Shown: positions 30,386 to 56,032 of the stretch, piece after piece
How positions within the stretch are numbered: position 1 is the stretch's first letter
Layout of the letters: each line of letters opens with the position of its first letter
From: Gemmatimonadota bacterium
GTDB taxonomy: Bacteria; Latescibacterota; UBA2968; UBA8231
Length of the DNA: 64,000 bases
NCBI GenBank assembly: GCA_038153405.1
Contig: JAYOYH010000004.1
Coordinates: forward strand, 99,626 to 163,625
Reading direction: 5' to 3'
Notes under the pieces: generated by a model
Told to the model about the DNA's origin: nothing
The model's database searches: none
Seen by the model: only the letters and a program-made list of their open reading frames with translations
Translations under genes and position numbers: made by a program

Positions 30386-30421
30386 CGTGATTGATACCAC
30401 AACTACTACATTGCTACTAGC

Positions 30422-31312
30422 TTAGAACTGAGCTTTGATCATACCCCAGCTAGCGGCTTCAACAGCGGTAGAACCGCCTTCCGGCCATGCAATAGCCGGA
30501 TCCAACGGAGCAATCAACAGGTCCATATCGGCATGGCAGCAACCCTCAACCTGGGTGCCCCACTGACCGATGCGGTTGTCGCCTTCACCTTCACCACCAT
30601 CAACCTCGTTGACGATGAAACCGACGTGAATCGTCTCGCCTTCGGTCAAGTTGTGGATATTGACCTCAGCCTCCGTGGCTTCTTCGTTCTTGGGCATGCT
30701 GCTAATCGGCTGAATCGCGATTTCGTAGGTGTAGGTGCTCTCGCCAAACTCTTCGCCTTCGAAGCTAAAGTCGACGGTGAACCACTGCGAACCGCTGGTC
30801 AACCAGGGCAGGGTCTTGACCGGACGCAGCCACTCGAAAGTGCCTTCGACCGGTGGAAAAGCGAACTTGTACGAAAAGCTCGTGGCCGTCTCGCCAGCGT
30901 TGTGCTGGTCGCGGGCCTCGTGCAGTGCGTTGACGTCGATTTCCCAGCTATCATCCCAGAAAAACTTACCCGGGTCCTGACGGCGAATCACGTGAATATC
31001 GTCGTAGACGCGGCTCGTCATATAGAGATTGTTGCTTGCTTCGTTCCAACCGGCCAGGTGGCGAATGTTCAGCGAGCTAGCGTCGAGCTCTTCGATACCA
31101 GCTGCTTCGGCAAAGCCGTCCAGCGAGTTGAGACGGTCGTTCTGAATGCCGTACACATCGACGGGAATCATGGCCCAGTCGGCATCGCTACCGTCGATCA
31201 CGGGCTGATTGCCATCGGGAAACTGCACGGCAACCATCAGACCGTTGTCGTGGGCCTGTGCGGAAAACGCACCGACCAAAACAGCCGTCATCGCAAGGAT
31301 TGACTTCCTCAT
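30422..31312 (-). CDS. Secreted acidic CBM9/DOMON-like putative sugar-binding protein with TAVE..WG.IK tail
   Basis: Signal peptide (AQA-H); PVIDGSDADW, GWNEASNNLYMTSRVYDD, WDDSWEIDV pattern; ends STAVEAASWGMIKAQF; GAGGAG RBS. Confidence 0.7.
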   Translation of the reverse strand: MRKSILAMTAVLVGAFSAQAHDNGLMVAVQFPDGNQPVIDGSDADWAMIPVDVYGIQNDRLNSLDGFAEAAGIEELDASSLNIRHLAGWNEASNNLYMTSRVYDDIHVIRRQDPGKFFWDDSWEIDVNALHEARDQHNAGETATSFSYKFAFPPVEGTFEWLRPVKTLPWLTSGSQWFTVDFSFEGEEFGESTYTYEIAIQPISSMPKNEEATEAEVNIHNLTEGETIHVGFIVNEVDGGEGEGDNRIGQWGTQVEGCCHADMDLLIAPLDPAIAWPEGGSTAVEAASWGMIKAQF

Positions 31313-31446
31313 TGTCTTTCTCCTCAATAACAAGTTGGTTAAAAAAGACTTCACGTTTTGCCGTTAACAGCACGGCGAACTACTTCCTTACCTCCTTTCA
31401 CTTTCAACAAATGCAGCGATAGACACTGCATAGATAGACTGTTGGG

Positions 31447-34095: not shown

Positions 34096-34123
34096 AAAAT
34101 TCCCTGCCCAATTAAGACCTCGG

Positions 34124-36139: not shown

Positions 36140-36167
36140 AATCGCATCTCCGAGCTCAGATTACACA

Positions 36168-40159: not shown

Positions 40160-40194
40160 TTGGCCGATATCTCATGGCGCGTTTGCATACCCTG

Positions 40195-42867
40195 CTAGTT
40201 CAGACCAGCGAAAATGGTGATGAAAGACTGACTCGTTAGCCGCGCTTTCTGACCGGAGAAGTCCCTGCGCTCCAGCGACCAACCCACCAAAGCGCGCAGT
40301 CGATAGCCGAGGTAGTCGGACTCATTGCTAAACTGCACTGCACCGACGAGTGAATTGAAATCCATCGAATCGTCTTCCAGATCGTTGAAGTACATGTACT
40401 CGATACCGGCCTGTAACATGGTGACCTTCAGCACGGGCACCCGAAAAAGAGCCGAGGCCAACTCCGTCAGCGAAGTCTCATCATTCTCGGAAAACAGACC
40501 GCGGCTCTGTTTGCGAAATTCGCTTTTAAAACGCGGCTCTATGACGACGCGTCCGATATTGCGGCGATAGCCAATCTTGTTGATGACGCCGAAAAAGAAG
40601 TCCGACTTGTCGAGCCCGTGCATCTGGCGATCAGCCCGACTCATCAGCTGGTTGAAGAGCACGTAGTTGAGCTTGTTCATCATGGAAACCGAACCGCGCT
40701 GCAGCGCGTGCCCGAGAAACGACTGACTCACAAACGTATCCCTTGCGAGCAGCGGATCTTCCACCTGCGTCAACTCGCCGCCCAGCAGCGTGTTGTCCGG
40801 AGCCCACTGCAATAGGTTGTTGGGAATGTCGTCCTCGACCTTTTTGACCATCTGAAATACGCGCAGCCGACCAAGGCGCGGTGAATCGCCGTCGTAGGTC
40901 ATCATTCCATACAGACTGTGGTTTTTCTGATTTGATGAGATCAATCCCTCGCGCAGCACGCCCAGCGACACGCTCATTTCAGGCGTGATATCGGCCTTGC
41001 CATAGACGTTATAACCACGGTGGTCTTTGCGGTAGGGATAGTCCGGCAGTTCGTCGTTCTCGTACTGATCTATCCAGAAGTTGTTGTTCATATCGACGCC
41101 GAATAGAAACTCGGGGCGATCCGACGCATAGCGCAGAAACGGCTCCTCGTAGTCAGGCGTTACGTTTGAGCGAACGAGGTTGTCGTTTTGGTTGATATCG
41201 GGGATGAAGTCGTTGTTCTGGTCCCATCCGGGAAATACGCGCGAATCGCCCGGCAGCCAGTCGAAGCGCACGGTGTCGGGATTGCGATCCTGATCGTCGT
41301 TATCCTCAACCAGTTCGACCATGCCGCGACGCTCGCTGTCATACTCTATGCCGCCAGCCCCCTGCGTGATAAAGGTCCGCGTATTGTAGTGCGGATCCAT
41401 GCTGTATGCTTCGCCAAACAGAGAAAAAACCGATGACTTCTTCGACGCATTGATCATCCAAGCAGGTGCGCTGCGCTGCGAGCCTACGCCAGAATACGCC
41501 TTGTGGCTCTCCTCGTTTGGATTGGGGTACTTGCGATAGTTCCAGTTCAGATCGTATTCGCCGTAAATATCGATTCCTTTGAAGTTGCGCACTTCAATCG
41601 TTCCGCCAAAAATATGCGTCGCCGTCGGAAGGCCGTACTCAAAGCGAACGGTTTCCAAATTCGTGATATCCTGGACGTTGCCCTCAGCCTGCGCCACGAG
41701 CAGCAGCACCGGCTGACCGTCCGTATTGGTCTGCTGATCGGATGTCATCCAGATCTGGTAGTCGTTGCCGACCGAAAGGCGAAACTCAACTTTCTCAATT
41801 TCTTCTTTGGCCTGGCTGGACTGGTCGACAAAAGACGGGCTGTTGAAATCGTAGAGCAGGCGGATTTCTTCGGAGCCGTTAGCGGCAATAAAGCCCTGCT
41901 CAACAAATCCCCCTTCGACGATAGGCTCAAAGCGGATATCTTTTCCGGAGTCTACCGTGCCGTCGCGATACGTGATAACCACGTCGGAACCGGCGGGGAA
42001 GTAGGCCGCTCCGCCTACGCCGTCTTCCGGTGAATCGTCGCGCAGAACGACCTGGATAAAGCCGACCGTCTTGTTTTGTCCGACGGTGAGCGCTCCGGCG
42101 AATGGATTGCCGGCGAGTTTGTCCGACAGCGTATTAGACTGGTGTGCGTTGACCGTATGGAGCGCCACTTCGACGAAGTCACCAAGCCCAACGCCAAAGC
42201 GCCCGCCAAGCAGCGTCGTATTGTTCGTGCGCGGAACTTCCAATTCGGCGGTAGACGATCCACCCGGACTGCTAATGCGCGAGTAGATCAGCGTCGCCTC
42301 GTAGCGATCCGTGCCCAAGTCGAACTGAACGCCGTCAAAGCGCGGCTTGGAAAAGACCATCGGACTCAGCACCGAACGCAGTTGGCTACTCACGGTCAGC
42401 GCGTAGTGGTACTGGCCCTGTTGGTCGGTAGCCACCACGACGTCGGAAAACCACTGGCTGAAGCGATCCGATTTAAACAGCGTATTACCAAACTGCAGAG
42501 GGCGGATCTGCGCGTTGTTAAAAATCAACCATCCGCGCGTCACGTAATTGCCGTAAAGGTCGTAAAAGTAATCGCCCTCCAACGTGGTTTCCACGTAGCG
42601 CTGATAGGGGTTGCGCGCGTAGTTGGTATATTCCCACTGCCGCCACTGATACTCCTTGTACAACTCCTGCGGCACATACCAACGGCGCATCGCCGGATCC
42701 AGCGCTCCCAGCATAACTCCGGGCCCCTGCGGCGCGTAGCTCGTTTCGGTCTGCGATTGGAGGCCCAACCGCGTTCCGTAGTCTACCTGTGCGCTTCCCG
42801 TCTCCGTGATCGCCAGCAAAGCTACGGCTAGCGACGAGGCGAAAAGCACTTTAGAAATCGCTTTCAA
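40195..42867 (-). CDS. Large exported protein, putative outer-membrane beta-barrel with Asp/Asn Ca-binding-like motifs (paralog A)
   Basis: TTG 42867 after GGAGG; signal peptide (GSA-Q); VEDNDDQDRNPD, FPGWDQNNDFIPD, DMNNNFWIDQYEND; ends FITIFAGLN. Confidence 0.7.
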   Translation of the reverse strand: MKAISKVLFASSLAVALLAITETGSAQVDYGTRLGLQSQTETSYAPQGPGVMLGALDPAMRRWYVPQELYKEYQWRQWEYTNYARNPYQRYVETTLEGDYFYDLYGNYVTRGWLIFNNAQIRPLQFGNTLFKSDRFSQWFSDVVVATDQQGQYHYALTVSSQLRSVLSPMVFSKPRFDGVQFDLGTDRYEATLIYSRISSPGGSSTAELEVPRTNNTTLLGGRFGVGLGDFVEVALHTVNAHQSNTLSDKLAGNPFAGALTVGQNKTVGFIQVVLRDDSPEDGVGGAAYFPAGSDVVITYRDGTVDSGKDIRFEPIVEGGFVEQGFIAANGSEEIRLLYDFNSPSFVDQSSQAKEEIEKVEFRLSVGNDYQIWMTSDQQTNTDGQPVLLLVAQAEGNVQDITNLETVRFEYGLPTATHIFGGTIEVRNFKGIDIYGEYDLNWNYRKYPNPNEESHKAYSGVGSQRSAPAWMINASKKSSVFSLFGEAYSMDPHYNTRTFITQGAGGIEYDSERRGMVELVEDNDDQDRNPDTVRFDWLPGDSRVFPGWDQNNDFIPDINQNDNLVRSNVTPDYEEPFLRYASDRPEFLFGVDMNNNFWIDQYENDELPDYPYRKDHRGYNVYGKADITPEMSVSLGVLREGLISSNQKNHSLYGMMTYDGDSPRLGRLRVFQMVKKVEDDIPNNLLQWAPDNTLLGGELTQVEDPLLARDTFVSQSFLGHALQRGSVSMMNKLNYVLFNQLMSRADRQMHGLDKSDFFFGVINKIGYRRNIGRVVIEPRFKSEFRKQSRGLFSENDETSLTELASALFRVPVLKVTMLQAGIEYMYFNDLEDDSMDFNSLVGAVQFSNESDYLGYRLRALVGWSLERRDFSGQKARLTSQSFITIFAGLN

Positions 42868-42928
42868 GCGTGCCTCCCTTAAATATGCAACCATTCGTCC
42901 CGGTCTGAACTCGGCGTGTCGCGCCCTA

Positions 42929-45900
42929 TTAGTACGCCACACCAACCAACTGCACCAACTGCTGCCCCGAAACATCTTCGGCGTCGGTTTCTACGTCCAC
43001 TTGGGCAATGTATAGCCCTGGCACGACCAAGACCCCATCATCGGCCCGGCCGTCCCAATGAAACTGCTGTGACCCACCCGACACGACGCGCTCTATGGTG
43101 CGCACGCGTCGCCCGTCCAAGCTGTAGATATGCACACTTACTGGGCGAGCGGCATGCACCTTGAACAGAGAGAAAGAGATGATCGTCTGGTCGTTAATCG
43201 CATCGCCGTTGGGCGTAAACGGGTTGGGCGCCACCTGCATTTTTTCGACCACATTGCCCGCGCCTTGGGCCAAGATCTCCAGACCAACGCCCGGTACGAC
43301 TTCCGTTACGTCTTCCGCGCTCGCCTCCTGCCACACCCCGCCGCTCGCGCCGTTGCGCACGGCAACCTTGATATTGGATCCCTGTAGAAAAATGCGCGAA
43401 GCAATGCGCAGACGTATCAAATCGCCCAAACTAACTACGGCTCCTCGACGGCTGGTCGGCAGACGATTGTAGTCGGTCTCCGTCAACAGCTCACCGTCGT
43501 CATCGTAGGGCGACTCTTCGCCCAGGGCCGCAACGATGCGGAAGTAGCGGACGGGGCCGCGCTCTTCGACGGGCAGATCTTCGTACTCGTCGCGATCCAC
43601 TTCGGTCAGCCCGCTTTCCCGCTGGCGAAAATAGCGGATATCGCCCTGTTGATCGATCGGTAGTATCGAATGCGATGTCGCTGTTAGCAGCAAACCGTCC
43701 ACCGTCGTCGGCACCGAATCGCCGACTTCCAACCTGCGATTGAATACGCTAGCCGCCCCCGCCGCACTCTCGAGTGGCTGTGGGAAGCGCACCCAAACCG
43801 AATCGCTCTGGTCGCCTGCAACCTGCACAATGCTTCCCGCCGCGCTAGCCAACCCGTCGCCGTCTGGCAGGTCGTAGATGACAGCAGGCGACTCGTTCTG
43901 AAAATCCTCTTCCGTGCCGACAGCCACATCGATCAGGTCCATATCCCATTTGGGCTCAGAGCGCAGCAGCATCTCGTCGAATCCGGGCTGAACGAGCGCG
44001 ACGGGCTGTGTGAGAAAGCCCGGGCGTAAAAACACTTCGAACGTGTCGAGAATACCGGCCTGCGTTTGCGCCGGCCACAGTTCGGCGCGCAGTTCCTGCG
44101 CAACCGGATTGTGCAGTTGCACCGATATGCGCTCAAGTGCCGGCGCGACAATTCGGCTATTGCTGATCAAACGCGCTTGAATTTGCATGTAGCGACGCAA
44201 ACTGGGCGACGTAACCCGGCCTCCCCGGTTGATGTATTTCTGGCTCCACGGACTCCAGTCAGGCCCCAGAGACAGCGTTGTATCGGTCACGCCCTTTAGA
44301 AAGCCGGGTAGCTTACTATATTGCTCCGCCGTCTGCTCCTCACCGCTATTTTTAAAGTAGCGCACAATCTGAAAGAGCTGGTTACCCGTCCGCGTGCGGA
44401 TTTCGACCTGCGTGCCAGGCGGCGTGCTGGCCTCCCAGTCAATAGCACCGAGGTTGAAATTGCCCGGCAATTCGATCAAGTCCGACTCGGCCACCACTTC
44501 GGCCGCCGGTCCCTCTGAAAAGATCTGCACTTCCGCAATCCAGGGCCAAAATTCGTCAATCCCAGCCCCAATATTATCCAAGTTAGTGTTGATAAAGGTG
44601 GTCAATTCGAGATAGCGGAGTTTGACCGGTGGATCCACCACGTCGTTTAGCGTAGTGAAGGAGCCGTTGTCGATATTCTTTTCGCGCTCGGGCGGACTCA
44701 AGGCCTGCCACAGCAGTTCGCCCCTGGCATCGCGCGCACCGGAAGAGCCGCGCATCAGGTATCCTCGTATGCCATCGGTGAAATAGCGAATTTCCTTAAG
44801 CCAGATCGACCCACCTAGGTCGACTATGAGGATATTGTCGTCGGGCTTTTCCGGATCGCGCGACGCGTGCTGATATCGGGTGGCACCATCTCCATCAAAA
44901 GCGGCTATAGGCGCCGCATTGGAAAAGGTGTGGCTGATCGATCCGCCCAGTCGCGCCAATCCCATACTCAGATTGTCGCCCATAGCCCAAGCGCCGACTT
45001 CAGCGAGGCGGGGCAGCTCGCGCCGATAGTACAGGCGCCGTCCCTGGCGTTCCGGTTCCAACGCCAAGTAGGTCGCTTCGTCTACCGGTTCTTCTCGGCC
45101 AGTTAGATCTTGGACGAAGTACTCTATGTCGCCGCGCTCGTTCACAGGTAGCGCCTGCCAGGCTTCCTCGCTTATCAGCTCGGCTCGTCCAAAGCGCGAA
45201 TCGGTGATGACGATGCGGATCGTCTCAATCTTGCGCCCCGTCCACTCAAAGTTGCTCACATTGGATACGAAGTTCGACTGATGACGGCCTGTCGCTACGC
45301 TGGCCGCAGAGAAGCGCTTTGACTCAACCGGCACATCGACCGGCAGCCCGTCGCTGACGGAACCGCTCTGAAAGATATAGGTGCGCTGGTCGGTGTTGGG
45401 CGCCTCGAAAGGCACGAAGCGCGAAAAGCGCAGGTTTCCTTCTTCAAAACGACTGGGCGTCTGGCGCTCGCTCAGCAGTAGAATAAACTTGTGGAAGGGA
45501 TCGCCCTGCCCCTCGTCGACAAACTGCAGGCGCAGCTGTTCCAACGGCACGACGCGCGCCAGGTCGACCTCGATCCACCACTGACTAATTGGGTCGTTCG
45601 GATCCGGCTCCCAGTAGGTATTGGGGTCGCCGTCCAAAATATTGGCGGCCATCTGCGGGTTCGACCCTACGCGACTCACGCCGGGGCGCACGGCATAATC
45701 GAAGATGGCATTTCCTTGCGTATCGAGTAGAATTTCACCCTTGTCGTTGATGCGCACCGTGCTGTCAATCGTCGCGATGCGCGCATCCTTGCTAAAGATT
45801 TCCAGCGGGCGTCGAAAACTCGTATCGGCTAAGACGTTGTACACCGTTCGGAACGATTTGGGAGCGATGCGTCCCAACGAATCGACGTATGCTAAATTGG

Positions 45901-46063
45901 CCGGGATGGTCCAATTGGACCAGTTGGCACGCCCCTCGACCACAACCTGCTCTGCATCGATTCGATAGCCCAGCTGCGCATTACTCGGCGCGACATGCAG
46001 CGCCAGCCACAGCGCCGCCAGCGCCAGCCGTACTACACGCCCGTGCATTTTCTCTTTCTTCAT
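42929..46063 (-). CDS. Large secreted protein with discoidin-like domains and FlgD-Ig-like C-terminal domain
   Basis: Signal peptide; NILDGDPNTYW..IEVDL and AAFDGD..IVDLG; RTRTG..WSPWS..SPSLRRYMQ; PNPFTPNGDAIND..WDGRA..VVPGLY. Confidence 0.75.
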   Translation of the reverse strand: MKKEKMHGRVVRLALAALWLALHVAPSNAQLGYRIDAEQVVVEGRANWSNWTIPANLAYVDSLGRIAPKSFRTVYNVLADTSFRRPLEIFSKDARIATIDSTVRINDKGEILLDTQGNAIFDYAVRPGVSRVGSNPQMAANILDGDPNTYWEPDPNDPISQWWIEVDLARVVPLEQLRLQFVDEGQGDPFHKFILLLSERQTPSRFEEGNLRFSRFVPFEAPNTDQRTYIFQSGSVSDGLPVDVPVESKRFSAASVATGRHQSNFVSNVSNFEWTGRKIETIRIVITDSRFGRAELISEEAWQALPVNERGDIEYFVQDLTGREEPVDEATYLALEPERQGRRLYYRRELPRLAEVGAWAMGDNLSMGLARLGGSISHTFSNAAPIAAFDGDGATRYQHASRDPEKPDDNILIVDLGGSIWLKEIRYFTDGIRGYLMRGSSGARDARGELLWQALSPPEREKNIDNGSFTTLNDVVDPPVKLRYLELTTFINTNLDNIGAGIDEFWPWIAEVQIFSEGPAAEVVAESDLIELPGNFNLGAIDWEASTPPGTQVEIRTRTGNQLFQIVRYFKNSGEEQTAEQYSKLPGFLKGVTDTTLSLGPDWSPWSQKYINRGGRVTSPSLRRYMQIQARLISNSRIVAPALERISVQLHNPVAQELRAELWPAQTQAGILDTFEVFLRPGFLTQPVALVQPGFDEMLLRSEPKWDMDLIDVAVGTEEDFQNESPAVIYDLPDGDGLASAAGSIVQVAGDQSDSVWVRFPQPLESAAGAASVFNRRLEVGDSVPTTVDGLLLTATSHSILPIDQQGDIRYFRQRESGLTEVDRDEYEDLPVEERGPVRYFRIVAALGEESPYDDDGELLTETDYNRLPTSRRGAVVSLGDLIRLRIASRIFLQGSNIKVAVRNGASGGVWQEASAEDVTEVVPGVGLEILAQGAGNVVEKMQVAPNPFTPNGDAINDQTIISFSLFKVHAARPVSVHIYSLDGRRVRTIERVVSGGSQQFHWDGRADDGVLVVPGLYIAQVDVETDAEDVSGQQLVQLVGVAY

Positions 46064-46066: not shown

Positions 46067-47752
46067 TTACGACTCCTCGTCAGCAACCAGACGATCGGGA
46101 AACTGCACCACCCGATCTGCATATTTCTCTCGCAAGCGGCTGATAAAACGCCCCACCAACTCGCTCTCATTCTGCTGGCGCAGCAGCGCCTCTACGCGCG
46201 GACGCGCTCCGTCAAACGGTTCGATCTGTTCCTCGCGGCGACCAAGCACCTGAAAGACGGCAAAGTGACCGTCTTTGGTCTCAATGGGGCCAACCCACTC
46301 GCCGTCCGCGGCGGCAAAGGCCGCGTCAAATAGCACGGGATAACGCGAGCGAAAAACCGGCGTTAACGCCATTTCGCCCGTGCGCGGCTTGCCGTGCGTT
46401 TCGGCATCGCGGCGAATCAACAGGCGTCCGATGGGGGTCCCATCTTTTAACTGCTGGAGAAAACCTTCGGCGTCTTCGAGCGTGCTGGCGGACAGTTCGC
46501 GAATCCGCACCTCGCGCGGAATGACGAAGCGGCTCTTATTGGCTTCGTAAAAGGCGTGCACTTCACCTTCGTCAAACGCCTGGCTGGCCACCGTTTCTCT
46601 GGCCATTAGCGCCGTTAAAATCAGCTTGTTTTTTTCCTGCTGATGCCAGCCGACAAATTCGTCCTCTCGATTCCATCCGCGCTCCTGCGCAACCCGCTCA
46701 AATAGCAGCGGACGAAGCAGCAGATCCTCAAATAGGCGCTGGGCAAATACCGAGTCGGGCGGCGGCCCCGATGCGCCTTGTGCCTTCAGGTAGTCTATGC
46801 CCTCGCCCACCGTCATCTGCCCTTCGCTCAGACTGAACAACACCTGCCCATCGGTAGCCGCATCGAGCTTATCGGCTCGACGCTTGCGCAATGCGTCGAT
46901 GAGTGCTCCCATCGCCTCTGCGCGCACCTCCACTCCATAGCGGTGCTTCAGCTGCTCGAATTCCTCGCGATTGCCCGCCTGCCACTTGCGATCGCGCACC
47001 AAGCGGTATACTTCCTGCTGATAGGTAGCTAACTCCGGCGTGCGCTCATCCAAAAAGCGGTAGATCTGCCAGCCGCGCGAAAGCCGCACGGGCGGCGCCA
47101 CTTCATCCAAGCCGACCGTAAAGAACACGCGGCGAGGTATGAGAAAACGCCGCTCGGCTTCGGAGCCATTAAACCATCCGACGACGCCATCGCCTTCGGC
47201 GATTGCATCGTTGGGGGCAAATTCATCGACCAATTCGGCGAAAGACCGACCGGCGGCCAACTCCGACAGCACGCGGTCGCGATCCGCCTCGCTGCGCACG
47301 AGTATGCGACTCAGCAAGCGTTCGCTGTTCAATCGGCTGTCGACAAACTCGCGCTGCAAGTCCTCTTCCGTGACTTCAATGCTCGGCGCAATTTCGCGAA
47401 CCTGGTAGAGTTCGGACAGGCGGCGACGCGTGATAAAGGCGAGTTCCTGCTGAATTTCGACGTCTTCGTACAACCCGCGCTCGGTTGCTTCCAGCAGGAG
47501 CAACTCGCGGTCGACCATCGCCTGCAAGTAGCCTGCCTGCGAAGCGGCGTCGCGCCGCACGTTTTCCTTTATGGGCGATAGGTTGCTAACAAATTGCTCA
47601 TATTCAACGCGCGTGATCTCAACTTGGCCGACGCGCGCCAGCACGGCGTCGTTATCACCGCACCCGCTCGATATCGTTAGCACACACGCAAAGGCCACTG
47701 CGAACCAAGTAAAGCGATGTACCGTGTGGACCCATTTTTTGCGAGCACTCAT
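46067..47752 (-). CDS. PpiC/SurA/PrsA-like foldase lipoprotein with duplicated parvulin-like modules
   Basis: Lipobox ISSG-C; VLARVG..IT, ILV..GRSFAELV..GVVGW, FDAAF..VGPIET. Confidence 0.8.
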   Translation of the reverse strand: MSARKKWVHTVHRFTWFAVAFACVLTISSGCGDNDAVLARVGQVEITRVEYEQFVSNLSPIKENVRRDAASQAGYLQAMVDRELLLLEATERGLYEDVEIQQELAFITRRRLSELYQVREIAPSIEVTEEDLQREFVDSRLNSERLLSRILVRSEADRDRVLSELAAGRSFAELVDEFAPNDAIAEGDGVVGWFNGSEAERRFLIPRRVFFTVGLDEVAPPVRLSRGWQIYRFLDERTPELATYQQEVYRLVRDRKWQAGNREEFEQLKHRYGVEVRAEAMGALIDALRKRRADKLDAATDGQVLFSLSEGQMTVGEGIDYLKAQGASGPPPDSVFAQRLFEDLLLRPLLFERVAQERGWNREDEFVGWHQQEKNKLILTALMARETVASQAFDEGEVHAFYEANKSRFVIPREVRIRELSASTLEDAEGFLQQLKDGTPIGRLLIRRDAETHGKPRTGEMALTPVFRSRYPVLFDAAFAAADGEWVGPIETKDGHFAVFQVLGRREEQIEPFDGARPRVEALLRQQNESELVGRFISRLREKYADRVVQFPDRLVADEES

Positions 47753-47909
47753 AACGCCGACTTGCGAACTCTCCAGTTTAAACCATGCACTAGCTAAACT
47801 AGGCCAACGAAAATCGGCCCATACAACAAGCAATACCGATTGGTCGACCGGGTTGTAAAATTTACAAACTTGTTATCGCCAATACATCTTATATTGGTCG
47901 AGTTTTTTG

Positions 47910-47954
47910 GACATACCATGCTATAATATAGACATAATATCACTTTTAGGACAT
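47910..47954 (-). promoter_or_regulatory. GACAT direct-repeat array, putative AraC-type binding sites
   Basis: GACAT (plus strand) at 47910, 47931, 47950 in AT-rich DNA upstream of the envelope operon. Confidence 0.6.
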
Positions 47955-48060
47955 TAAAGCAAGAAAAGCGACCTCTCACTACACCATCCCAACATTGTGA
48001 TACCTCTGATTCACACTTGAGCGTCTATGCCCAACCCCGCACAGACCAGCCATTCCAAGA

Positions 48061-50049
48061 CTAATACATGTTGATCCGATTGCCCGTCATGCCAGTGAAT
48101 CCATCGATGACCAACCACAACCCGCCGACGACAAACTGGCCAAGAATCAGTCCCATAAACAGCCAGCGCGTATGGCGGTACCCCACTGGTCCGGCATACT
48201 TTAGCACGACGCTCTTCATACACCAAGCCAAAAAGATGCTGAACCAGATGCTGTCCATAATCCACGTGCCGCTTATGACATAGCCGATGGGGTGCAGCGG
48301 CCACCAGACAAAGTGATGACGCAGCAGCATCAGCAGTGCCATAATCGCGGCCCCCAACCCATTCCAGCCCCACCCGGCCCAATTCGGCTCAACAGGCGTG
48401 TTGATGAACTGGGCCGCCAGCTTGAACGGCTCCTGCGCAAACCAGGAAAAATACTGCTGGTGCATATTCAGCGCTCCGTACTGGTAACCCAACCGCAGCG
48501 TGATATAGATCGAGCCGAGCAGAGCGATCAGCAGCGCAGCCGCAAGCATAGCCAACACGCGTCGGCGATTGCCCTTTACCTCGTGCAGCAAGCGTATGCC
48601 GTTGGCCACCGGCGCCATGGCAAAGACCAGCAGATCGCCGGCCCACGTCAGGGTATAGCCGATGGCGACCAAACCGCCCGGTCCCAGCAGCGACGAGCCA
48701 AAGCCCGATACGACAAAACCGCCGGCCGTCAGCCCCTCCACCGCAGACGACAGGCCCGCTTCGACGATGACGCGCGTCAGCGCAAAGAAGATGGCAAAAG
48801 CGGCGAATAAGAAAATGGGAACAGCCCAGGCGGGCATGCCCGCTCTCCACAGCCACACGCCCATAATGGCCAGCCCCACACCCAAGCCGATAACGGCCGA
48901 GCGATAGCTGAGCATCTCACCGTCGTCCCTAGTCGAATCGGCCAACCAGGCCTGGTCCCACACTTCGCGCAGATGCGTTCGCGCCGTCCACATTCCCATC
49001 AGCAGCAGCACGACCATCGCTCCCAGCGTCTGATGGCTCAGCATACCGGTCGTAGCGCCCATATGCCCGAAGCGGCCCAACTGCTCGGCGCTGTAAATGC
49101 CCAACACCCCGCAGACGGCCTGCTGCACTTTCGCCAGCGCGAAAAACACCCATAGACTAAACGAAACGCCGGTGTTTATGAGGTAGGCCAATCCGAGCAT
49201 GAGGTAGTTGAGTCGCACCCGTATGGCCGGCATATCGGGCACCACGTCGAACGTTATGTTGAGCGTCGTGCTCGGAATAAAGGGATAGTAATTGCTCAGC
49301 GAGTCGATCGTATTGAAGATGAGGGGAATGGCAAAACCCACCCACATCAGCGGCCTCTTGAGAAAGGGCTTTACCAGCTGCCCTTCCCTTCCGTCGATCA
49401 TTGCCAGCGGCACCTGCACGAGCGGATAGAGCAAGCGCTCGTTATCCATCCACTGGCGCCGCATGATCACCATAGCGCAGATAATCGCGCAGTACAAACC
49501 CGCCATAAACAGCAGCCACCAGCCCAGCGGCTGTAGCCACACATCCCACGGCACGCGGCCCCCCTGCGACAGCCCTTCGTAAAAGGCTTTAATCGCCACT
49601 TCGTCACGCGGAGCAATCCAGTCGGGCAGGTAGGGCACGACAGTCTCGAGCCAGCCGTTTTCGGGGGTGGCGTAATACATCACGGCGGAGATAACGGCCA
49701 GGGCCACCCCTGTAAAGCCGCGCGTGGGAACGGCGGTGGCCAACATCATCATGACCGTGACGAGCAGCAGTTCGGCGCGGTTGAGAGCCCAACTGCGCCG
49801 CACACTGCCCAGCAGCGGCTGCACGGCGACGACAAAGACAAAGAGCAGAAAAAAAGCGGCCGGCGTAGAGGAACTCAGCCCTAAGCGCGTCCCCTGAATG
49901 ATGAACTCGCCATAGGGCAGCCCAAGCGCGATGACTAAGCACAGCACCATCCCCACCAACATACCCCACGGCCGAATGTGCGGCGTGGAGTGCTGACCTA
50001 GACCGGCGGAGGGATCAGAGGGGCGTTCCCGACTCAATAGCAAACCCAA
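48061..50049 (-). CDS. DUF6785/DUF6784-like polytopic membrane protein (putative permease), paralog 1
   Basis: Many TM segments; MRRQWMDNERLLYPL, RVIVEAGL, WWPLHPIGY; start uncertain. Confidence 0.75.
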   Translation of the reverse strand: MGLLLSRERPSDPSAGLGQHSTPHIRPWGMLVGMVLCLVIALGLPYGEFIIQGTRLGLSSSTPAAFFLLFVFVVAVQPLLGSVRRSWALNRAELLLVTVMMMLATAVPTRGFTGVALAVISAVMYYATPENGWLETVVPYLPDWIAPRDEVAIKAFYEGLSQGGRVPWDVWLQPLGWWLLFMAGLYCAIICAMVIMRRQWMDNERLLYPLVQVPLAMIDGREGQLVKPFLKRPLMWVGFAIPLIFNTIDSLSNYYPFIPSTTLNITFDVVPDMPAIRVRLNYLMLGLAYLINTGVSFSLWVFFALAKVQQAVCGVLGIYSAEQLGRFGHMGATTGMLSHQTLGAMVVLLLMGMWTARTHLREVWDQAWLADSTRDDGEMLSYRSAVIGLGVGLAIMGVWLWRAGMPAWAVPIFLFAAFAIFFALTRVIVEAGLSSAVEGLTAGGFVVSGFGSSLLGPGGLVAIGYTLTWAGDLLVFAMAPVANGIRLLHEVKGNRRRVLAMLAAALLIALLGSIYITLRLGYQYGALNMHQQYFSWFAQEPFKLAAQFINTPVEPNWAGWGWNGLGAAIMALLMLLRHHFVWWPLHPIGYVISGTWIMDSIWFSIFLAWCMKSVVLKYAGPVGYRHTRWLFMGLILGQFVVGGLWLVIDGFTGMTGNRINMY

Positions 50050-50124
50050 GCGGTGGAGGGATAAAGCATCTCACTAATGTAGACCTTGACCCGCATGCAA
50101 ACAGGTTTAACAATTTACTAAATT

Positions 50125-50190
50125 GACATATCTACCTAAAATTCAGACATTCTTCACTATACAGACATTAACTATCTCAATTCAGACATT
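50125..50190. promoter_or_regulatory. (CA)GACAT(T) direct-repeat array in divergent permease/AraC promoter
   Basis: GACAT at 50125, 50146, 50164, 50185; the last three are CAGACATT. Confidence 0.7.
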
Positions 50191-50194: not shown

Positions 50195-51208
50195 ATGCCA
50201 AAACTCGCAGAGCAATTGACAAAACAGTTGGGCTACTCGCCCTTACTCGACTCTGTCTTACTCCATTTCGACAAGCATATTCTACTAGCGACACCGCACG
50301 TCTTCGCACTGCCTCTAAATGACGTATTCTTCACGTGTTATTACATCCACAGCGTGCGTCATCCATCGGACCATAAATACTCGGACAACCAGCACGCCGA
50401 TGCCGTTGAAATACACCACTGTATAGAGGGAAAATACGAAATCGAAACGGACGGGCAGCCGCCACTGACCTTGCTGCCCGGCGACGGCGCACTCATCGTG
50501 CCCGGACTCGTGCATCGGTCGCACTGTATCGAGCGGGGAGTTCGACTGACGGCGAGGGCGGGAATCAACGGTCCGGACTCGGCGACCTTCACGCGCGCGC
50601 TGAGCGCGCAGGCCAACGGCCAGTTATTGAAGTTTGACGGCCGGCCGCTGGAAGCGACCATCGCCCAGATGTTTCGCACACTGCTCGACGAGGCACCCAA
50701 CCCGTGGAGATACGAGGTCACCGGCAGCCTGATTCGCGTATGGCTGGGCACCGTGCTGGCCACCCAACTCGACCTGAGCGAACACGCCCCCGAGTCGACG
50801 GCGGCAGGCGTCGAAGTGGGCAAGCGGGGCAACGCCCTATGCGAGCGCGCCAGCGCCTTTATATACGCCAACTTTCAGCGCTCGCTCAGCATCGAGGAGA
50901 TCGCCGACCACACCGGTATCACCCCGCGCCACCTCAATCGCCTGTTTAAGAAATACGTCGGCATCAGCGCGGGCCATATACTGCGCGACGTGCGCCTAAC
51001 AGACGCCTTTCGCATTCTCAGCGAAACGCCCAAACCGAGCATTAAAGAAGTGGCCTATCGCACGGGCTTTTCCAGCCCCAGCTACTTCACGCAGTGCTTT
51101 AAGCAGCAGTATGGAATCCTGCCGACCGAAGTGCACCTGCGTCTGGCCAAGCCCCTTGAAGACGCGCAAAAACTCATCGACGCATCGTCCGACACTAGGT
51201 CGACCTAA
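50195..51208 (+). CDS. AraC family transcriptional regulator with cupin sensor domain
   Basis: HADAVEIH..PGLVH cupin; SIEEIA..RHLNRLFK, SIKEVAYRTGFSSPSYFTQCFK..GILP; start set to ATG 50195. Confidence 0.93.
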   Translation: MPKLAEQLTKQLGYSPLLDSVLLHFDKHILLATPHVFALPLNDVFFTCYYIHSVRHPSDHKYSDNQHADAVEIHHCIEGKYEIETDGQPPLTLLPGDGALIVPGLVHRSHCIERGVRLTARAGINGPDSATFTRALSAQANGQLLKFDGRPLEATIAQMFRTLLDEAPNPWRYEVTGSLIRVWLGTVLATQLDLSEHAPESTAAGVEVGKRGNALCERASAFIYANFQRSLSIEEIADHTGITPRHLNRLFKKYVGISAGHILRDVRLTDAFRILSETPKPSIKEVAYRTGFSSPSYFTQCFKQQYGILPTEVHLRLAKPLEDAQKLIDASSDTRST

Positions 51209-51209: not shown

Positions 51210-52862
51210 TCACTTTAACAGCTGCATCTTTTCTATAGCTACGCGGTCGCGCCAGACCAGCTCGGCAAAGTAGGTGCCCGCAGCGACGGGTGCACCGCCC
51301 TCGTCGCGCCCGTTCCAAACGACTTCGTGCGCCCCGCCCTCTAGCCTGCTCTGCACCAGCGCGCGCACCCGCTGTCCCTGCGCGTTGTAAATCGTCAGTA
51401 CCGCTCCATCGGCCGCCGGCAGGCGATAGCGAATAACGGTCTCGGCGTTAAACGGGTTGGGATAGTTGCCGACCAGCCCGAAGTCGGTCGGCATCCCCTC
51501 GCTATCTCGCACCGCCGTATCGGTGCGGCGCGGCGGCAGCGATATTTCCCACAGGCGTCCGTTCGACGCGTACTCCAACACGTAGATCTTGTTGCCGCGC
51601 ATAACCGCATCGACCGGACTGGTAAAGCCCTGCACCAAGCGCGTCACCCGCATGCTGTAGCGCTGCCCATCGGCCTCTTTGCGCAGGTCGAGGTGCAGCA
51701 GATCTTCGCCGGGATCGCCGAAGGGAGCGTATTTGCGCAGATCGGCATCGTTTTGACTCAGGCAAAAACCGTCGCCTCTAAACGGATCGGCCAACGCCAG
51801 TTCGCCGTCAAAAACTAGCCCCAGCGGCGAGCTGTGTGGCGTGAAAGAGCTGATGGTTACCCCCTCGTCGCTCGAATCTTTAATGAACCCATCCACCGGA
51901 TCTCTGAATTTGTCCGCATCGGGACCGAAGTTGACTACCGGGTCGGTAAACACCACACCATCCGGCGGCGGCGGAAAGTCGGGATCGTTGTAAAAGGTCC
52001 GCTCCATATTGATCCCTTCGACCAAAAGCGGATCGGACTCAGGCGGATCAAAATCGGCAAAGCGCTGCGGGTTGTCGTAGGCCCCTATGCGCCAGGGAAA
52101 GCCGTAGTGATGCCCCTCGCGAATCCAGTTTAACTCCTCGGGATTATCGCGCGTATCGGAATTCTCGGCGGCGAATAAATCGCCGTTGGGCGCAAAGGCC
52201 AGATCAAAGCTATTGCGCACCCCGTCGGCGTATAGGAAGGGGCGCAACCCCTCCTCGTCGTCGGGCAAGAGCACGTTCTCCGCGTCGATCGGCAGGCGGA
52301 ATATCGCCGAGGTAATCGGATGCTCGCGGCCGCTGTTTTGCTCTTCGCCGTGATCGGTGCGCGAACCGCTGTTGACAAAGAGAAAGCGGCCGTCGGGTGA
52401 AACTTCAATGGCATTGAACTTGTGGTCGCGCCCCGTGCTCTCCGGATAGGGCGCGCTCTCGGCCACCGTCGTCCACACGCGCTGATCGCCGACCGGCACG
52501 CCCTTCCTAACGATGCCGATATTGTTGCCATCGCGCGTTGGGTTGCCGACCAGATAGAACGTGCCGTCGGGACCAATGGCAAAGCCCGTGGCCACGCGAA
52601 TGCCGTGGTCGGGCCAAGCGTAGAGTCGTTCGCTGGTGCCGGCCATCACGTCGACTGAGTAAATCAATCCGTTGACTCCCAGATAGTACATCTCGCCGGT
52701 CACGGGATGTTTGGCGATGCGTATAAAGTTTTCGCCCACGCTCATCACTTGGCGCACTTCAATACCCGGTTGCACGACCTGCGGCTGCGACTGCGCATGC
52801 GCGCTATGCGCCCATACAATGCCACACAAACTCAACAACACCCAGCGCAGAAATCCCTTCAT
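51210..52862 (-). CDS. Secreted glucose/sorbosone dehydrogenase-like beta-propeller with T9SS/FlgD-like CTD
   Basis: YADGVRNSFDLAF, EELNWI..HYGFPW, HSSPLGL; NYPNPFNA..WNGRD..GTYF..KMQLLK. Confidence 0.8.
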   Translation of the reverse strand: MKGFLRWVLLSLCGIVWAHSAHAQSQPQVVQPGIEVRQVMSVGENFIRIAKHPVTGEMYYLGVNGLIYSVDVMAGTSERLYAWPDHGIRVATGFAIGPDGTFYLVGNPTRDGNNIGIVRKGVPVGDQRVWTTVAESAPYPESTGRDHKFNAIEVSPDGRFLFVNSGSRTDHGEEQNSGREHPITSAIFRLPIDAENVLLPDDEEGLRPFLYADGVRNSFDLAFAPNGDLFAAENSDTRDNPEELNWIREGHHYGFPWRIGAYDNPQRFADFDPPESDPLLVEGINMERTFYNDPDFPPPPDGVVFTDPVVNFGPDADKFRDPVDGFIKDSSDEGVTISSFTPHSSPLGLVFDGELALADPFRGDGFCLSQNDADLRKYAPFGDPGEDLLHLDLRKEADGQRYSMRVTRLVQGFTSPVDAVMRGNKIYVLEYASNGRLWEISLPPRRTDTAVRDSEGMPTDFGLVGNYPNPFNAETVIRYRLPAADGAVLTIYNAQGQRVRALVQSRLEGGAHEVVWNGRDEGGAPVAAGTYFAELVWRDRVAIEKMQLLK

Positions 52863-52872: not shown

Positions 52873-54789
52873 TCACTTTGCCAAAATCATTTTGCGCGTG
52901 CGGACGAATTCCGCCGTCTGCAATCGATAAAAATAGACTCCGGTGGCGCGATCGCGCGCATCCCACGCCGATTCGTGCGCGCCCGCCAGCAGCAGTTGAT
53001 CTTCCAGCACCGCGTCGAGGCGGCGTCCCAGCACGTCGAATACTTCGAGCGTTACGCGCTGTGCTGCGGGCAGGACAAAGCGCATCTGCGTGCGCGCGTT
53101 AAACGGGTTGGGATAATTGTCCAACGCGATGTGCAGCGGCTTCCCACCGCGCTCTTCGACGGCCGTCGGCGCTCGATCAACGAGGCGAGAAGGCACGTCC
53201 ACGGCCGCATCGAGCGCGTGCACATAGGCATAGGGCACGTCCAGCGTGCACGGCGGCGCGTCGACATACTGGCTGTCGCCGAAGTGGTTGCCCAGCAGCT
53301 GCACGCCGCCCAGCACGGGCGTAAAGTCCATCACCACCGCCTTGCGCACGCCCTCGAAGTAGTTGTTTTCCACCCGCACGCAGGCGCCCATGCGCGCGTT
53401 GATCGCCGTATCGCTGTCGAGATAGTAATTGTTGAAAATGTGCGCCTTGCCAAAGCGAATACTCGGCAGGCGCGAATTGCAGTTGCTAAAGACGTTGTGG
53501 TGATAGGTCACGCGAATGACCGAATCGGCCACCGCCTGATCGCCGGAGCTGATCAAGCTCGCTTTAAAGTGATCGTGGAAGTGCGTTCGCGAAATCGTTA
53601 TAAACGACGATTCGTTCTTAATATCGAGCAGACCGTCGTAGAAATCCTTGTCGTGCTGCCGATCGGAATACAGTTCGCAGCCGTCGATCCAGATATTCTG
53701 CGAGCGGTTGTTGATTTCGATGGCGTCCTGCGGCGTTACGTGCGATATCTGCACATTGCGCACGATGACGTTGCGCGCCGCGTTAATCTGCAAACCAATG
53801 CCCTTTAAGTGCGCCTGCCCCCCCAAGCCGAGCAGCGTTTTATGCGATGCAATATCGATTTCCGTCGCCGCTGAAAACTGCCCTGAGAAAGTCACGACGC
53901 GCGGTTCGTCGCCCTGTAGTAGTGCGCGCAGTTCCTCTATACTGTGCGCCTCGACCGTGTCGCCCAGCGATCCACCCGTAACCCAATACGGCGTGCCGCG
54001 GTCGTCCTGAACGGAGGCATAGCCGATTAGGCGCGGATCGGCACGCGTGCCCTCGGGCAAGAAAATCGCCTCGGCCACCGTGCTCTTTGCCATGGCAAAC
54101 GCATGCACGGCTTCTGCACCCGGCGCATCGCCCGACCAACTCTGAAAGAAATAGCCGGGGCGCGGCTGGGCGCGCACCGTCACCAGCGTGCCCTCGTCGT
54201 AGTAGTCTAAAACGGGTTCATAGGAAACGGTGCCACCGCGCTCGTCGTTGGACACGACCGTCAGCACGTAAGACGGCACGCAGGCGACGACCTCAACCCC
54301 CGCACCGACGACTTTCAAATAGTCGATATTGACCAAACCGGACGGTTCGAGCGCTTCGAGGCGAATGGAGTTATAGCCGCTGGCCAGTTCCACCCACAGC
54401 GTATCGCGCTCGCGCCAGTTCGTCCACTTGCCCGTATGCGGAAAGAGCACGCTGTCGCGCGCGGTGGTGCCGTTGATCACTAGGCGTGCGGCGCGTTGGC
54501 GAATATCTCCGCCGTTGCCATAGCGCCAGACCAGTGCGGCCGGTCCAGATTGGCCTGCCTGCACGCTCCAACTAACGCTGTAGCCCGCGCCGATGTCGGT
54601 ATCGGCATACCCGCTGCCCGTATAGCCTTCAACGCTGGTCATAATGGAGCCGTCTACCGCACAAAAACCGGTGGCACCTTCCTCGATGACCACCTCCTCT
54701 GCCGCGGCCTGCGCCGCAGCCATACCCCCAATAAACGCACACGCCCAATGCATCAATAACCGCAGTGCACAACAGCCATTACCTTGCAA
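52873..54789 (-). CDS. Pectate lyase PL1 with N-terminal CBM35-like module and T9SS type A-like CTD
   Basis: GYTGSGYAD..RYGNG..TGKWTNW..NIDYL; NVIVRN, IWID, DGLLD, RLPSIRFG; NYPNPFNA..GVYFYRL; start approximate. Confidence 0.9.
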   Translation of the reverse strand: MQGNGCCALRLLMHWACAFIGGMAAAQAAAEEVVIEEGATGFCAVDGSIMTSVEGYTGSGYADTDIGAGYSVSWSVQAGQSGPAALVWRYGNGGDIRQRAARLVINGTTARDSVLFPHTGKWTNWRERDTLWVELASGYNSIRLEALEPSGLVNIDYLKVVGAGVEVVACVPSYVLTVVSNDERGGTVSYEPVLDYYDEGTLVTVRAQPRPGYFFQSWSGDAPGAEAVHAFAMAKSTVAEAIFLPEGTRADPRLIGYASVQDDRGTPYWVTGGSLGDTVEAHSIEELRALLQGDEPRVVTFSGQFSAATEIDIASHKTLLGLGGQAHLKGIGLQINAARNVIVRNVQISHVTPQDAIEINNRSQNIWIDGCELYSDRQHDKDFYDGLLDIKNESSFITISRTHFHDHFKASLISSGDQAVADSVIRVTYHHNVFSNCNSRLPSIRFGKAHIFNNYYLDSDTAINARMGACVRVENNYFEGVRKAVVMDFTPVLGGVQLLGNHFGDSQYVDAPPCTLDVPYAYVHALDAAVDVPSRLVDRAPTAVEERGGKPLHIALDNYPNPFNARTQMRFVLPAAQRVTLEVFDVLGRRLDAVLEDQLLLAGAHESAWDARDRATGVYFYRLQTAEFVRTRKMILAK

Positions 54790-54931
54790 ATGCTCGATCC
54801 ATCCCGTAGTATGTTTTGATTGCTTTCCCAGCCGAACTATCCCGTCTGCGATCGCACCAAATTATAGAAGATGCCCCTTAAAACATTCTGGGCAGACCCG
54901 ATTGCCGTCAAGGAAAATTAGGATTTACCTC

Positions 54932-56032
54932 GTGTTCGCGTGCCGACTTGGCCTCTTTGTGCTGCTCCTATTGCACGGCGTGAGCACCCCTCAGCACGCC
55001 GGTGCCCCCATCGGCTGGAACGAGGCCCAGCGCCAGCCGGGCGAATGGTATGCAAGCGGCGAAGCTGCGCGCATTGCCGACAACGTATTGCTCTACCAAT
55101 ATCCCAACGGCGGCTGGCCGAAAAACGTCGATTTAACCCGCCACATCGACCCGGTTGAACGGACGCGCATCCGCCGCGCGATCGAGGAAGAGGATCCGCG
55201 GCGCTTTCCAACGACCATCGACAACGGCGCCGCACACCGGCCGGCGCGCTATCTGGCCCGCGTCTATGCGCAAACGCGCTCCGAACGCGCCGGTCGCGGC
55301 TTTATCCGCGCACTCGACTATCTCCTAGAAGCACAGTACGAAAACGGCGGCTGGCCGCAGTTTTATCCGCTGCGCTCCGGCTACCACGACCACATCACCT
55401 TTAACGACGGCGCAATGATCGGCGTCATGCGCCTGCTGCGCGACGTGGCACGCGGCCACGATCCCTACGCTTTCGTCGACTCTGTGCACCGCGCAGACGC
55501 ACAGCGGGCCGTCGATCGAGGTTTGGAAGTCATCCTCGCAGCGCAGGTCCACATCGACGGCACACCGACGGTTTGGTGCGCCCAGCACGACCGCTACGAC
55601 CTGCGCCCGCGCCAGGCGCGCTCCTATGAATACCCATCGCTGAGCGGCTGGGAAAGCGTCGAAATAACGCGCTATTTAATGGAGGAAGAACGGCAAACAC
55701 CACGCGTGCGAGATGCAATTGAGTGGGCCGTTGCGTGGTATGCGCAGTCTAAAATCGAGGGCATCGCCGTTGTCGAACAGCCAGATTCATCGCTGCCGGC
55801 CAGATTTGACGTCTTTGTCGTTGAAGACCCATCGGCACCGCCCCTGTGGGCGCGCTTTTACGACCTCGACACCCAGCGACCGATCTTTGCCGACCGCGAT
55901 GGCACCCTGCACGCCGATTTCGGCGATATGGAGTACGAGCGCCGCGTTGGCTATCGCTGGCTGGGGACTTGGCCCCAGCGCCTGTTGGACCGCGACTATC
56001 CGCAGTGGCGCGCGCGGCTAGGTGCGCAATAG
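54932..56032 (+). CDS. Pectate lyase PL10 (PelA/Pel-15E-like)
   Basis: NGGWPKN, TIDNGA, QYENGGWPQFYP, ITFNDGAM, WCAQH, ARSYE, WARFYD, ERRVGY; start set to GTG 54932. Confidence 0.93.
   Translation: MFACRLGLFVLLLLHGVSTPQHAGAPIGWNEAQRQPGEWYASGEAARIADNVLLYQYPNGGWPKNVDLTRHIDPVERTRIRRAIEEEDPRRFPTTIDNGAAHRPARYLARVYAQTRSERAGRGFIRALDYLLEAQYENGGWPQFYPLRSGYHDHITFNDGAMIGVMRLLRDVARGHDPYAFVDSVHRADAQRAVDRGLEVILAAQVHIDGTPTVWCAQHDRYDLRPRQARSYEYPSLSGWESVEITRYLMEEERQTPRVRDAIEWAVAWYAQSKIEGIAVVEQPDSSLPARFDVFVVEDPSAPPLWARFYDLDTQRPIFADRDGTLHADFGDMEYERRVGYRWLGTWPQRLLDRDYPQWRARLGAQ

What the first reader, a model, noticed from the sequence alone, without database searches (positions are those of the whole stretch)
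47910..50190. The same GACAT direct-repeat array lies upstream of both the envelope operon and the permease/AraC pair
Seen: GACAT at 47910/47931/47950 (spacing 21, 19) and at 50125/50146/50164/50185 (21, 18, 21), same orientation, both in AT-rich intergenic DNA upstream of minus-strand genes; the last copy ends 5 nt before the AraC start. Known: AraC-family proteins bind direct repeats about two helical turns apart. Inference: the adjacent AraC protein activates both transcripts and represses itself, making the locus one ligand-induced regulon. I did not see the array before the lyases or the second permease.
Basis: partly seen in the sequence, partly recalled or inferred. Interest (0 to 1): 0.7.

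Follow-up and report, generated by a model that had tools for sequence, protein, structure and literature searches.

The report
AraC operator arrays controlling envelope cassette
Two conserved four-copy DNA repeat arrays in an uncultured Latescibacterota-like bacterium are found only where the neighbouring AraC-type regulator gene is present, so they are likely its binding sites, predicted to switch on a large, poorly understood cell-envelope uptake cassette and to damp the regulator's own gene, in response to a signal not yet identified.

Summary
Each array has four copies of a 13-bp motif (AnWATAnRGACAT), spaced 21, 18-19 and 20-21 bp. Both arrays persist beside AraC orthologues down to about 59% identity. 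The same cassette in genomes lacking this AraC has no array (0 of 16 loci, against 4 of 4) and mostly has a consensus TTGACA before the PPIase gene. Both minus-strand promoters keep a -10-like hexamer 43-45 nt past the nearest repeat, so the repeats end upstream of -35, an activator position. Array A also covers the araC leader. No array lies at the lyases or the second DUF6785 gene, so the direct regulon is two operators; a uronate ligand is unsupported. Binding, start sites and ligand are untested. Verdict: new member of a known kind, useful as an induction handle on an uncharacterised cassette.

The parts
47902..47974 (+). Array B: four 13-bp copies with cores GACAT 47910, 47931, 47950 and GACCT 47970 (spacing 21, 19, 20); predicted operator of the PPIase-first operon
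   Evidence: (40.5 bits)
50117..50189 (+). Array A: four copies with cores GACAT 50125, 50146, 50164, 50185 (spacing 21, 18, 21); predicted operator shared by the DUF6785 gene and araC
   Evidence: (48.0 bits)
47859..47864 (-). Predicted -10 hexamer TAAATT of the operon promoter, 45 nt past the nearest repeat core; the -35 position (47882-47887) reads ATGTAT
   Evidence: start site not measured
50076..50081 (-). Predicted -10 hexamer TACATT of the DUF6785 promoter, 43 nt past the nearest repeat core; the -35 position (50099-50104) reads CTGTTT
   Evidence: start site not measured
50137..50142 (+). Candidate -10 (TAAAAT) of the araC promoter, inside array A; a TAnnnT lies here in 6 of 8 loci examined; it may instead be only part of repeat copy 2
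50195..51208 (+). AraC/XylS-family regulator, 337 aa: N-terminal cupin-type domain with invariant H52, H67, H107 and near-invariant E72; C-terminal double helix-turn-helix
48061..50037 (-). DUF6785/DUF6784 membrane protein; start uncertain (TTG at 50049, 50043 or 50037; the last is conserved in relatives, read by eye)
46067..47752 (-). PPIase/SurA-like lipoprotein, first gene after array B; ATG at 47752 gives a signal peptide ending in a lipobox-like Cys
27093..46063 (-). Rest of the predicted operon: F5/8 + FlgD-type CTD protein, two 926/935-aa paralogues of no Pfam family, TPR protein, two CTD proteins, a 310-aa protein, sugar-type solute-binding protein and two ABC permeases; order conserved in G001 and G002
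   Evidence: co-transcription inferred
51210..52862 (-). Glucose/sorbosone-dehydrogenase-like propeller with CTD, convergent with araC in 12 of 13 araC loci; no array upstream
52873..56032 (.). Divergent PL1-type (minus) and PL10-type (plus) pectate lyase genes; neighbours, no array found

Best explanation
The two arrays are likely the operators of the adjacent AraC-family protein, which is predicted to bind each array as four subunits, to activate the DUF6785 gene and the PPIase-first envelope and sugar-uptake operon, and to repress its own gene. Shown: the arrays, their conservation, their co-occurrence with the regulator, and the domain make-up of the regulator. Inferred: each 21-bp-spaced pair takes one dimer. 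The nearest repeat is centred near -54 to -56 and ends 12-14 bp upstream of the -35 position, so activation would be of the upstream (class I-like, alpha-CTD) type, not the -35-overlapping type. The same array A covers the last 78 nt before the araC start codon and would block araC transcription. A small ligand, probably a sugar or sugar acid, would bind the His/Glu-lined cupin pocket; its identity is open. The lyases are not direct targets in this genome.
For: Not chance. Unique in the genome under a matrix built from 40 sites of six orthologous loci, leaving out the window and its near-twin L007. Array A present in 12 of 12 araC-orthologue loci with upstream DNA (L007-L010, L023-L030; several are near-duplicates and six trained the matrix). 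Array B present in 7 of 7 related loci with enough flank (L007-L010, L027, L038 and, degenerate, L052). Natural control: the regulator is found in 5 of 168 phylum genomes, the cassette's binding protein in 32 of 168; DUF6785 loci of AraC-less genomes score -4.8 to 5.1 bits (16 of 16), AraC-bearing ones 44.3 to 48.0 (4 of 4, two of them in training). G137, inside the same DUF6785 clade (100/100), lacks both. In the 12 AraC-less loci with DUF6785 next to PPIase, the spacer holds TTGACA in 11 and TTGACG in 1, while array-bearing promoters have poor -35 hexamers. TAnnnT at 43-45 nt in 18 of 20 promoter copies, 17 of 19 without L052, whose match is not homologous; chance 6-18% per sequence. Recognition helices almost invariant across the family. 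The other three HTH_18 proteins of the genome are receiver-fused and G137 keeps homologues of them without arrays. No LytTR domain found in the 93% complete genome. 21-bp direct repeats are the described pattern for AraC-family sugar regulators (PMC3870299, PMC4514859, passages).
Against: No binding or expression data; the one RNA run gave only two low-depth contigs inside the PPIase gene. The AraC-less controls are mostly close kin (14 of 16 from one genus, about four lineages), and regulator and arrays are physically linked, so co-occurrence counts few independent events. The weak-proximal-site pattern of many AraC activators holds for array A (copy 1 mean 2.4 bits against 10.6 and 12.3) but not for array B (copy 1 10.3). 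Copy A1 is conserved as TTG[A/C]CA in 9 of 9 loci but as GACAT in only 3 of 7, which may point to another role. The middle spacing of 18-19 bp is off the helical phase. The -35 assignment in promoter B is poorly conserved. Promoters are predicted from pattern only.
Confidence: 0.74

Rival explanations
1. The AraC protein binds both arrays but acts mainly as a repressor or roadblock, for example by looping between arrays A and B, 2.2 kb apart, and ligand releases it.
For: Two equal four-copy arrays in the same orientation; array B lies in the path of any read-through from the DUF6785 gene, with no terminator-like site found in that spacer; extra single GACAT copies lie inside the DUF6785 core promoter or leader in some relatives (L008, L009, L010, L027). 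MelR represses through a four-subunit complex (PMC2377442, abstract and Introduction).
Against: The arrays end upstream of the predicted -35 of both minus-strand promoters and overlap neither core element; those -35 hexamers are poor, whereas AraC-less cassettes have consensus -35 hexamers, as expected if an activator is needed.
Confidence: 0.13
2. Another, unlinked regulator that binds direct repeats (a response regulator, LytTR type or other) owns the arrays, and araC is only one of its targets.
For: Only LytTR and HTH_18 families were searched in the genome; LytTR proteins also use a 21-bp period (recalled). The assembly is 93% complete.
Against: No LytTR found. Receiver-AraC homologues persist in G137, which has no array (one of those matches holds a stop). 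An unlinked global regulator would be expected to have other sites, yet the genome has none.
Confidence: 0.08
3. The repeats are not protein operators: chance, RNA structure elements, or multiple sigma-70 -35-like hexamers.
For: Copy A1 contains a perfect TTGACA and all copies resemble its core.
Against: Shuffles and genome scan exclude chance. No Rfam match to E=1. No strand of either array folds better than shuffles (z from -1.57 to +1.23). No -10 lies 16-18 nt after copy A1 in the window, and the spacing pattern is fixed in both promoters.
Confidence: 0.05

Closest known systems
AraC-family RhaR regulons of Bacillales, Bacteroides and Enterococcus (PMC3870299, passages)
   Same: [quoted passage not shown]
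   Different: Four copies per operator with an 18-19 bp middle step; targets are an envelope cassette, not a catabolic pathway. The paper's logos are figures that I could not see, so motif identity was not compared. I recall that some of those logos have an A-rich stretch followed by GACA; this is recalled and unverified.
XylS, MtlR, MekR and AraC (PBAD) tandem half-sites (PMC4514859, passages)
   Same: Dimeric activators with two direct-repeat half-sites about 21-22 bp apart upstream of the target promoter.
   Different: Their listed consensus sequences do not contain GACAT; the MtlR proximal site reaches -36, whereas here the nearest motif ends near -48 to -50; two half-sites there, four here.
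E. coli MelR at melAB/melR (PMC2377442, abstract and Introduction)
   Same: Four subunits on two pairs of sites; activation of the operon and repression of a divergent regulator gene.
   Different: MelR pairs are separated by a CRP site and use a fifth site R; here the four copies are contiguous, all in one orientation, and the set is repeated at a second promoter. The protein is far below the MelR cut-off (35.6 against 253 bits).
MarA/SoxS/Rob class I promoters (PMC12052159, passages)
   Same: AraC-family activation from a site upstream of -35; that paper places class I sites at -56 to -85.
   Different: Those are monomers on one site without a ligand domain; here the nearest motif is centred at about -54 to -56, on the border of that range, and its orientation relative to the two helices is unknown.

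Membership tests
AraC/XylS family (protein) | About 100-aa C-terminal domain with two helix-turn-helix motifs | tested here: met
   PF12833 79.5 bits (cut-off 33.6), PF00165 61.7 bits with two stretches; model helices 210-306
AraC/XylS family (protein) | N-terminal effector-binding and dimerisation domain of cupin type | tested here: met
   PF02311 23.6 bits (cut-off 21.1), Cupin_2 below cut-off; model pLDDT 88 matches ToxT, Rns, CuxR, AraC and BgaR entries; effector binding and dimerisation themselves not tested
Named AraC subfamilies (AraC, RhaR, RhaS, MelR, PocR and others in NCBIfam) | Score above the curated cut-off | tested here: not met
   All 25 shown of 31 matches are far below cut-off
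AraC-type direct-repeat operator | Asymmetric half-sites repeated at about 21 bp | tested here: met
   First spacing 21 in 11 of 12 arrays, last spacing 20-21 in 12 of 12, middle 18-19 in 11 of 12
AraC-type direct-repeat operator | Bound by the cognate protein | not testable with these tools
   Only co-occurrence
AraC-type direct-repeat operator | Site overlapping the regulator's own promoter (autoregulation) | tested here: inconclusive
   Array A covers the 78 nt before the ATG; the araC promoter itself is only a candidate
Class II AraC activation (AraC, XylS, MtlR) | Proximal half-site overlaps or abuts the -35 hexamer | tested here: not met
   Nearest 13-bp motif ends 12-14 bp upstream of the predicted -35 in both promoters; rests on predicted promoters
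LytTR-type operator | A LytTR-domain protein in the genome | tested here: not met
   No PF04397 match in G000, 93% complete; control rang in 5 of 14 genomes
Pectin-utilisation regulon including the lyases | Operator upstream of the lyase genes | tested here: not met
   No four-copy array elsewhere in the genome; best pair near the lyases 10.7 bits against 23-27 in the arrays
Structured RNA element (riboswitch, protein-binding leader) | Rfam match or stable fold | tested here: not met

The most novel reading that the evidence does not exclude
This is a dedicated ligand switch on the uncharacterised giant-protein and CTD-cargo envelope cassette of Latescibacterota, making this copy an inducible glycan-capture and uptake system analogous to a polysaccharide utilisation locus, run by an AraC protein that activates from an unusual four-in-tandem operator upstream of -35. 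Finding its ligand would name the substrate of the cassette.
Probability: 0.3. Interest if true: 0.68.

Novelty: new member of a known kind. Interest (0 to 1): 0.43.

Why it matters
The regulatory logic is familiar, but the target is not. The genome holds 22 tblastn matches to the 926-aa protein and 20 to DUF6785, none with a known function, and only this copy carries the arrays. A cognate regulator, a defined operator and predicted promoters give a bench route to the cassette's substrate in a phylum known mainly from genomes: screen ligands on the purified protein or on a reporter. The motif was not found in the held literature (DUF6785 absent), and presence or absence of arrays with matching changes at -35 is a clean case of promoter rewiring.

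Tried and rejected
Extending the regulon: the four-copy scan found nothing else in the genome; the best outside pair (22.3 bits, G000:C90:4027, between a haem-NO-binding gene and a TMEM43 gene) lacks further copies and the -10 at 43-45 nt, so it was left out. Exact GACAT-N13-16-GACAT scans of G001, G002, G020 and G133 gave mostly scattered pairs; four were fetched and none scored as an array. Distant homologues P0016-P0021 (31-43%, same recognition helices) would be the best test, but no DNA context could be reached. Transcript evidence: one RNA run with a small share, two contigs in the PPIase gene, no start sites. Single-sequence model of the 926-aa protein failed (pLDDT 29); its barrel nature rests on a sub-threshold Atlas lead (0.88) and on earlier AI notes. 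The DUF6785 Atlas search gave only its own family, with OPT on 11% of one cluster, so 'permease' stays a lead. The binding protein matches many sugar-binding proteins without naming a substrate. The tree leaves gain versus loss open (G137 in an unresolved fork; the one-clade test did not finish). RNA structure and Rfam rejected. PPIase paralogues at 25-40% identity (26 loci) show no array scoring above 18 bits. Literature searches were seen as listings only, apart from the five papers cited.

Full report
Observation. The seven GACAT copies are at the stated coordinates and strand. The window is G000:C4:99626-163625 of a 4.86 Mb, 59.4% G+C assembly; the closest related records are titled Latescibacterota or Gemmatimonadota MAGs. 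Among 5591 GACAT on both strands there are 20 pairs, 2 triples and 1 quadruple at 17-23 nt spacing; the quadruple and one triple are these arrays, 2.2 kb apart. With dinucleotide shuffles of the two spacers and any 5-mer allowed, 0 of 5000 gave a shared chain of three or more.

Anatomy. The + strand gene at 50195-51208 is an AraC/XylS regulator with a cupin-type N-terminal domain; its model (pLDDT 88, 20-row alignment) matches ToxT, Rns, CuxR, AraC and BgaR folds, and it belongs to no named NCBIfam subfamily. H52, H67 and H107 are invariant in 20 of 20 aligned homologues and E72 in 18 of 20, which suggests a metal-assisted small-molecule pocket (inference). Divergent from it lies a DUF6785/DUF6784 membrane protein, then array B, then about 20 kb of same-strand genes: PPIase lipoprotein, CTD-tailed proteins, two 926/935-aa proteins of no family, a TPR protein, and a sugar-type binding protein with two ABC permeases. 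This order is kept in G001 and G002.

Conservation. AraC orthologues of 59-93% identity were fetched from genomes and metagenomes. Array A is present in 12 of 12 loci with upstream DNA and array B in 7 of 7 related loci with enough flank; several loci are near-duplicates, and G001 is almost identical to the window over array B. Alignment shows that each array has four copies, the fourth of array B being GACCT at 47970. The unit is about AnWATAnRGACAT. The first spacing is 21 in 11 of 12 arrays, the middle 18-19 in 11 of 12, the last 20-21 in 12 of 12. Identity to the window is 0.69-1.00 at the core columns and falls to about 0.2-0.3 at the edges. A matrix from 40 sites of six loci, without the window or L007, scores the window arrays 48.0 and 40.5 bits; the next independent place in the genome scores 10.0.

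Natural control. The regulator was found in 5 of 168 phylum genomes with two different queries (one search scored at most 12 candidates per genome). The cassette is far more widespread: the binding protein matches in 32 of 168 genomes and close DUF6785 relatives (64-75%) were fetched from 16 AraC-less loci (20 loci taken of over 150 matches, best first). None of the 16 has an array (best -4.8 to 5.1 bits), against 44.3-48.0 in 4 of 4 AraC-bearing loci, two of which were in the training set. Three of the 16 are cut by a contig end on one side, and 12 show DUF6785 next to PPIase. Ten longer stretches of 12-20 kb also scored at most 3.0. In the 12 syntenic spacers the best sigma-70 match starts with TTGACA in 11 and TTGACG in 1. 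G137 falls in the same DUF6785 clade as the AraC-bearing loci (100/100), yet lacks regulator and arrays; its dehydrogenase-like orthologue lies elsewhere without araC. The controls are few independent lineages: 14 of 16 come from one genus. Direction (gain or loss) is unresolved.

Promoter geometry. Read on the minus strand from the nearest repeat core, a TAnnnT hexamer starts 43-45 nt downstream in 18 of 20 promoter copies; the two misses read TAAATG; L052 should be dropped because its homologous hexamer lies further away in a broken copy, leaving 17 of 19. Chance is 6-18% per sequence, and the sequences are related. Seventeen bases upstream, promoter A reads TTGTAT, TTGAAA or CTGTTT-like hexamers; promoter B is less consistent. 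By convention the nearest 13-bp motif then spans about -60 to -48 (A) and -62 to -50 (B). That is upstream of -35, on the border of the class I range given for MarA sites (PMC12052159, passages), and unlike MtlR, whose proximal site reaches -36 (PMC4514859, passages). On the + strand, array A covers the last 78 nt before the araC ATG, which is the invariant start, leaving no room for activation of araC; repression is the likely effect, as for MelR (PMC2377442, abstract and Introduction). Against a tidy model: the proximal copy is weak in A but not in B, and copy A1 is conserved as TTG[A/C]CA rather than GACAT, which I cannot explain.

Other binders. The three other HTH_18 proteins are receiver-fused, share about 29% identity with this one in the one case compared, and have homologues in array-less G137. 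No LytTR domain was found. Other regulator families were not surveyed.

Scope and ligand. No array or strong pair lies before the PL1, PL10, dehydrogenase-like, second DUF6785 or GH38 genes. The constant neighbour of araC is the dehydrogenase-like gene (12 of 13 loci; the 13th contig ends inside araC). For a pectin link: the window's two lyases are the only strong PL1 and PL10 matches in the genome; full-length PL10 occurs in G002 and G020 but only weak matches in three AraC-less genomes; in G020 a PL10 gene follows the last permease on the same strand after about 540 nt; PL1 and PL10 are reported for Latescibacteria (PMC4454575, passages). Against it: AraC-less cassettes have unrelated upstream neighbours, and L027 has no lyase beside araC. 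I put a pectin-derived ligand at about 0.3.

Comparison and novelty. Direct repeats with a 21-bp period are described for AraC-family rhamnose regulators (PMC3870299, passages); its logos are figures and I did not open its supplements, which may hold a similar motif. Searches for the motif with AraC terms gave 0 papers, DUF6785 gave 0, Latescibacter with pectin and AraC gave 2 unrelated titles, and none of the 12 listed names the phylum; the library omits most subscription papers. Earlier AI notes on paralogous cassettes in this genome call them giant-barrel and lectin cassettes; I confirmed the many paralogues but not the barrel fold.

Verdict. A real, conserved, locus-specific operator pair; likely AraC-bound (about 0.85), likely activating both minus-strand promoters and repressing araC (about 0.74 overall). 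New member of a known kind. Interest 0.43, mainly as an experimental handle on the cassette.

Noticed in passing
window 47853-47867: A near-perfect 15-bp palindrome overlaps the predicted -10 of promoter B, and a CAAGTT-like block just upstream of that -10 is conserved in relatives. The palindrome itself is not kept in distant relatives; a second regulator is possible.
   Followed up: no
window 47919-47927 (+): A perfect extended -10 (TG-n-TATAAT) between copies B1 and B2 faces the 3' end of the DUF6785 gene (antisense); not conserved beyond G001.
   Followed up: partly
G000:C90:4027 (L110): A 21-bp-spaced GGGACAA pair scoring 22.3 bits lies between a haem-NO-binding gene and a TMEM43 gene; possibly a site for another regulator.
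   Followed up: partly
L107:2340-2460 (G020:C283): A degenerate array (20.6 bits) lies between a nucleoside-hydrolase-like gene and a secreted 476-aa protein with no Pfam match, whose N-terminal motif I recall from PL1 lyases (recalled, not confirmed). The same contig has a PPIase broken by a stop.
   Followed up: partly
L009 (G133:C251): The contig repeats the araC/DUF6785 junction and places promoter B in front of the dehydrogenase-like gene instead of the PPIase; either a rearrangement or a misassembly.
   Followed up: no
L005, L111 (G001:C16) against window 27093-56032: Cassette proteins are 96-99.9% identical to G001 while araC, the dehydrogenase-like gene and the lyases are 81-93% identical; suggests recent exchange of the cassette or strong constraint.
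   Followed up: no
L008:7897, L009:766/874/6077/6183, L010:3042: Single extra GACAT copies lie inside the DUF6785 core promoter or just before its start in some relatives; possible auxiliary repression sites.
   Followed up: no
L010: The record is titled Woeseia but groups with two metagenome loci inside the Latescibacterota-like DUF6785 clade; probably a mis-binned contig.
   Followed up: no
window 26340-27100: The spacer after the last permease holds a roughly 45-nt element twice (seen); possibly a small repeat family.
   Followed up: no
window 12878-20041 (-): Four consecutive ABC exporter genes (ABC_membrane + ABC_tran) form a run of two apparent heterodimer pairs.
   Followed up: no
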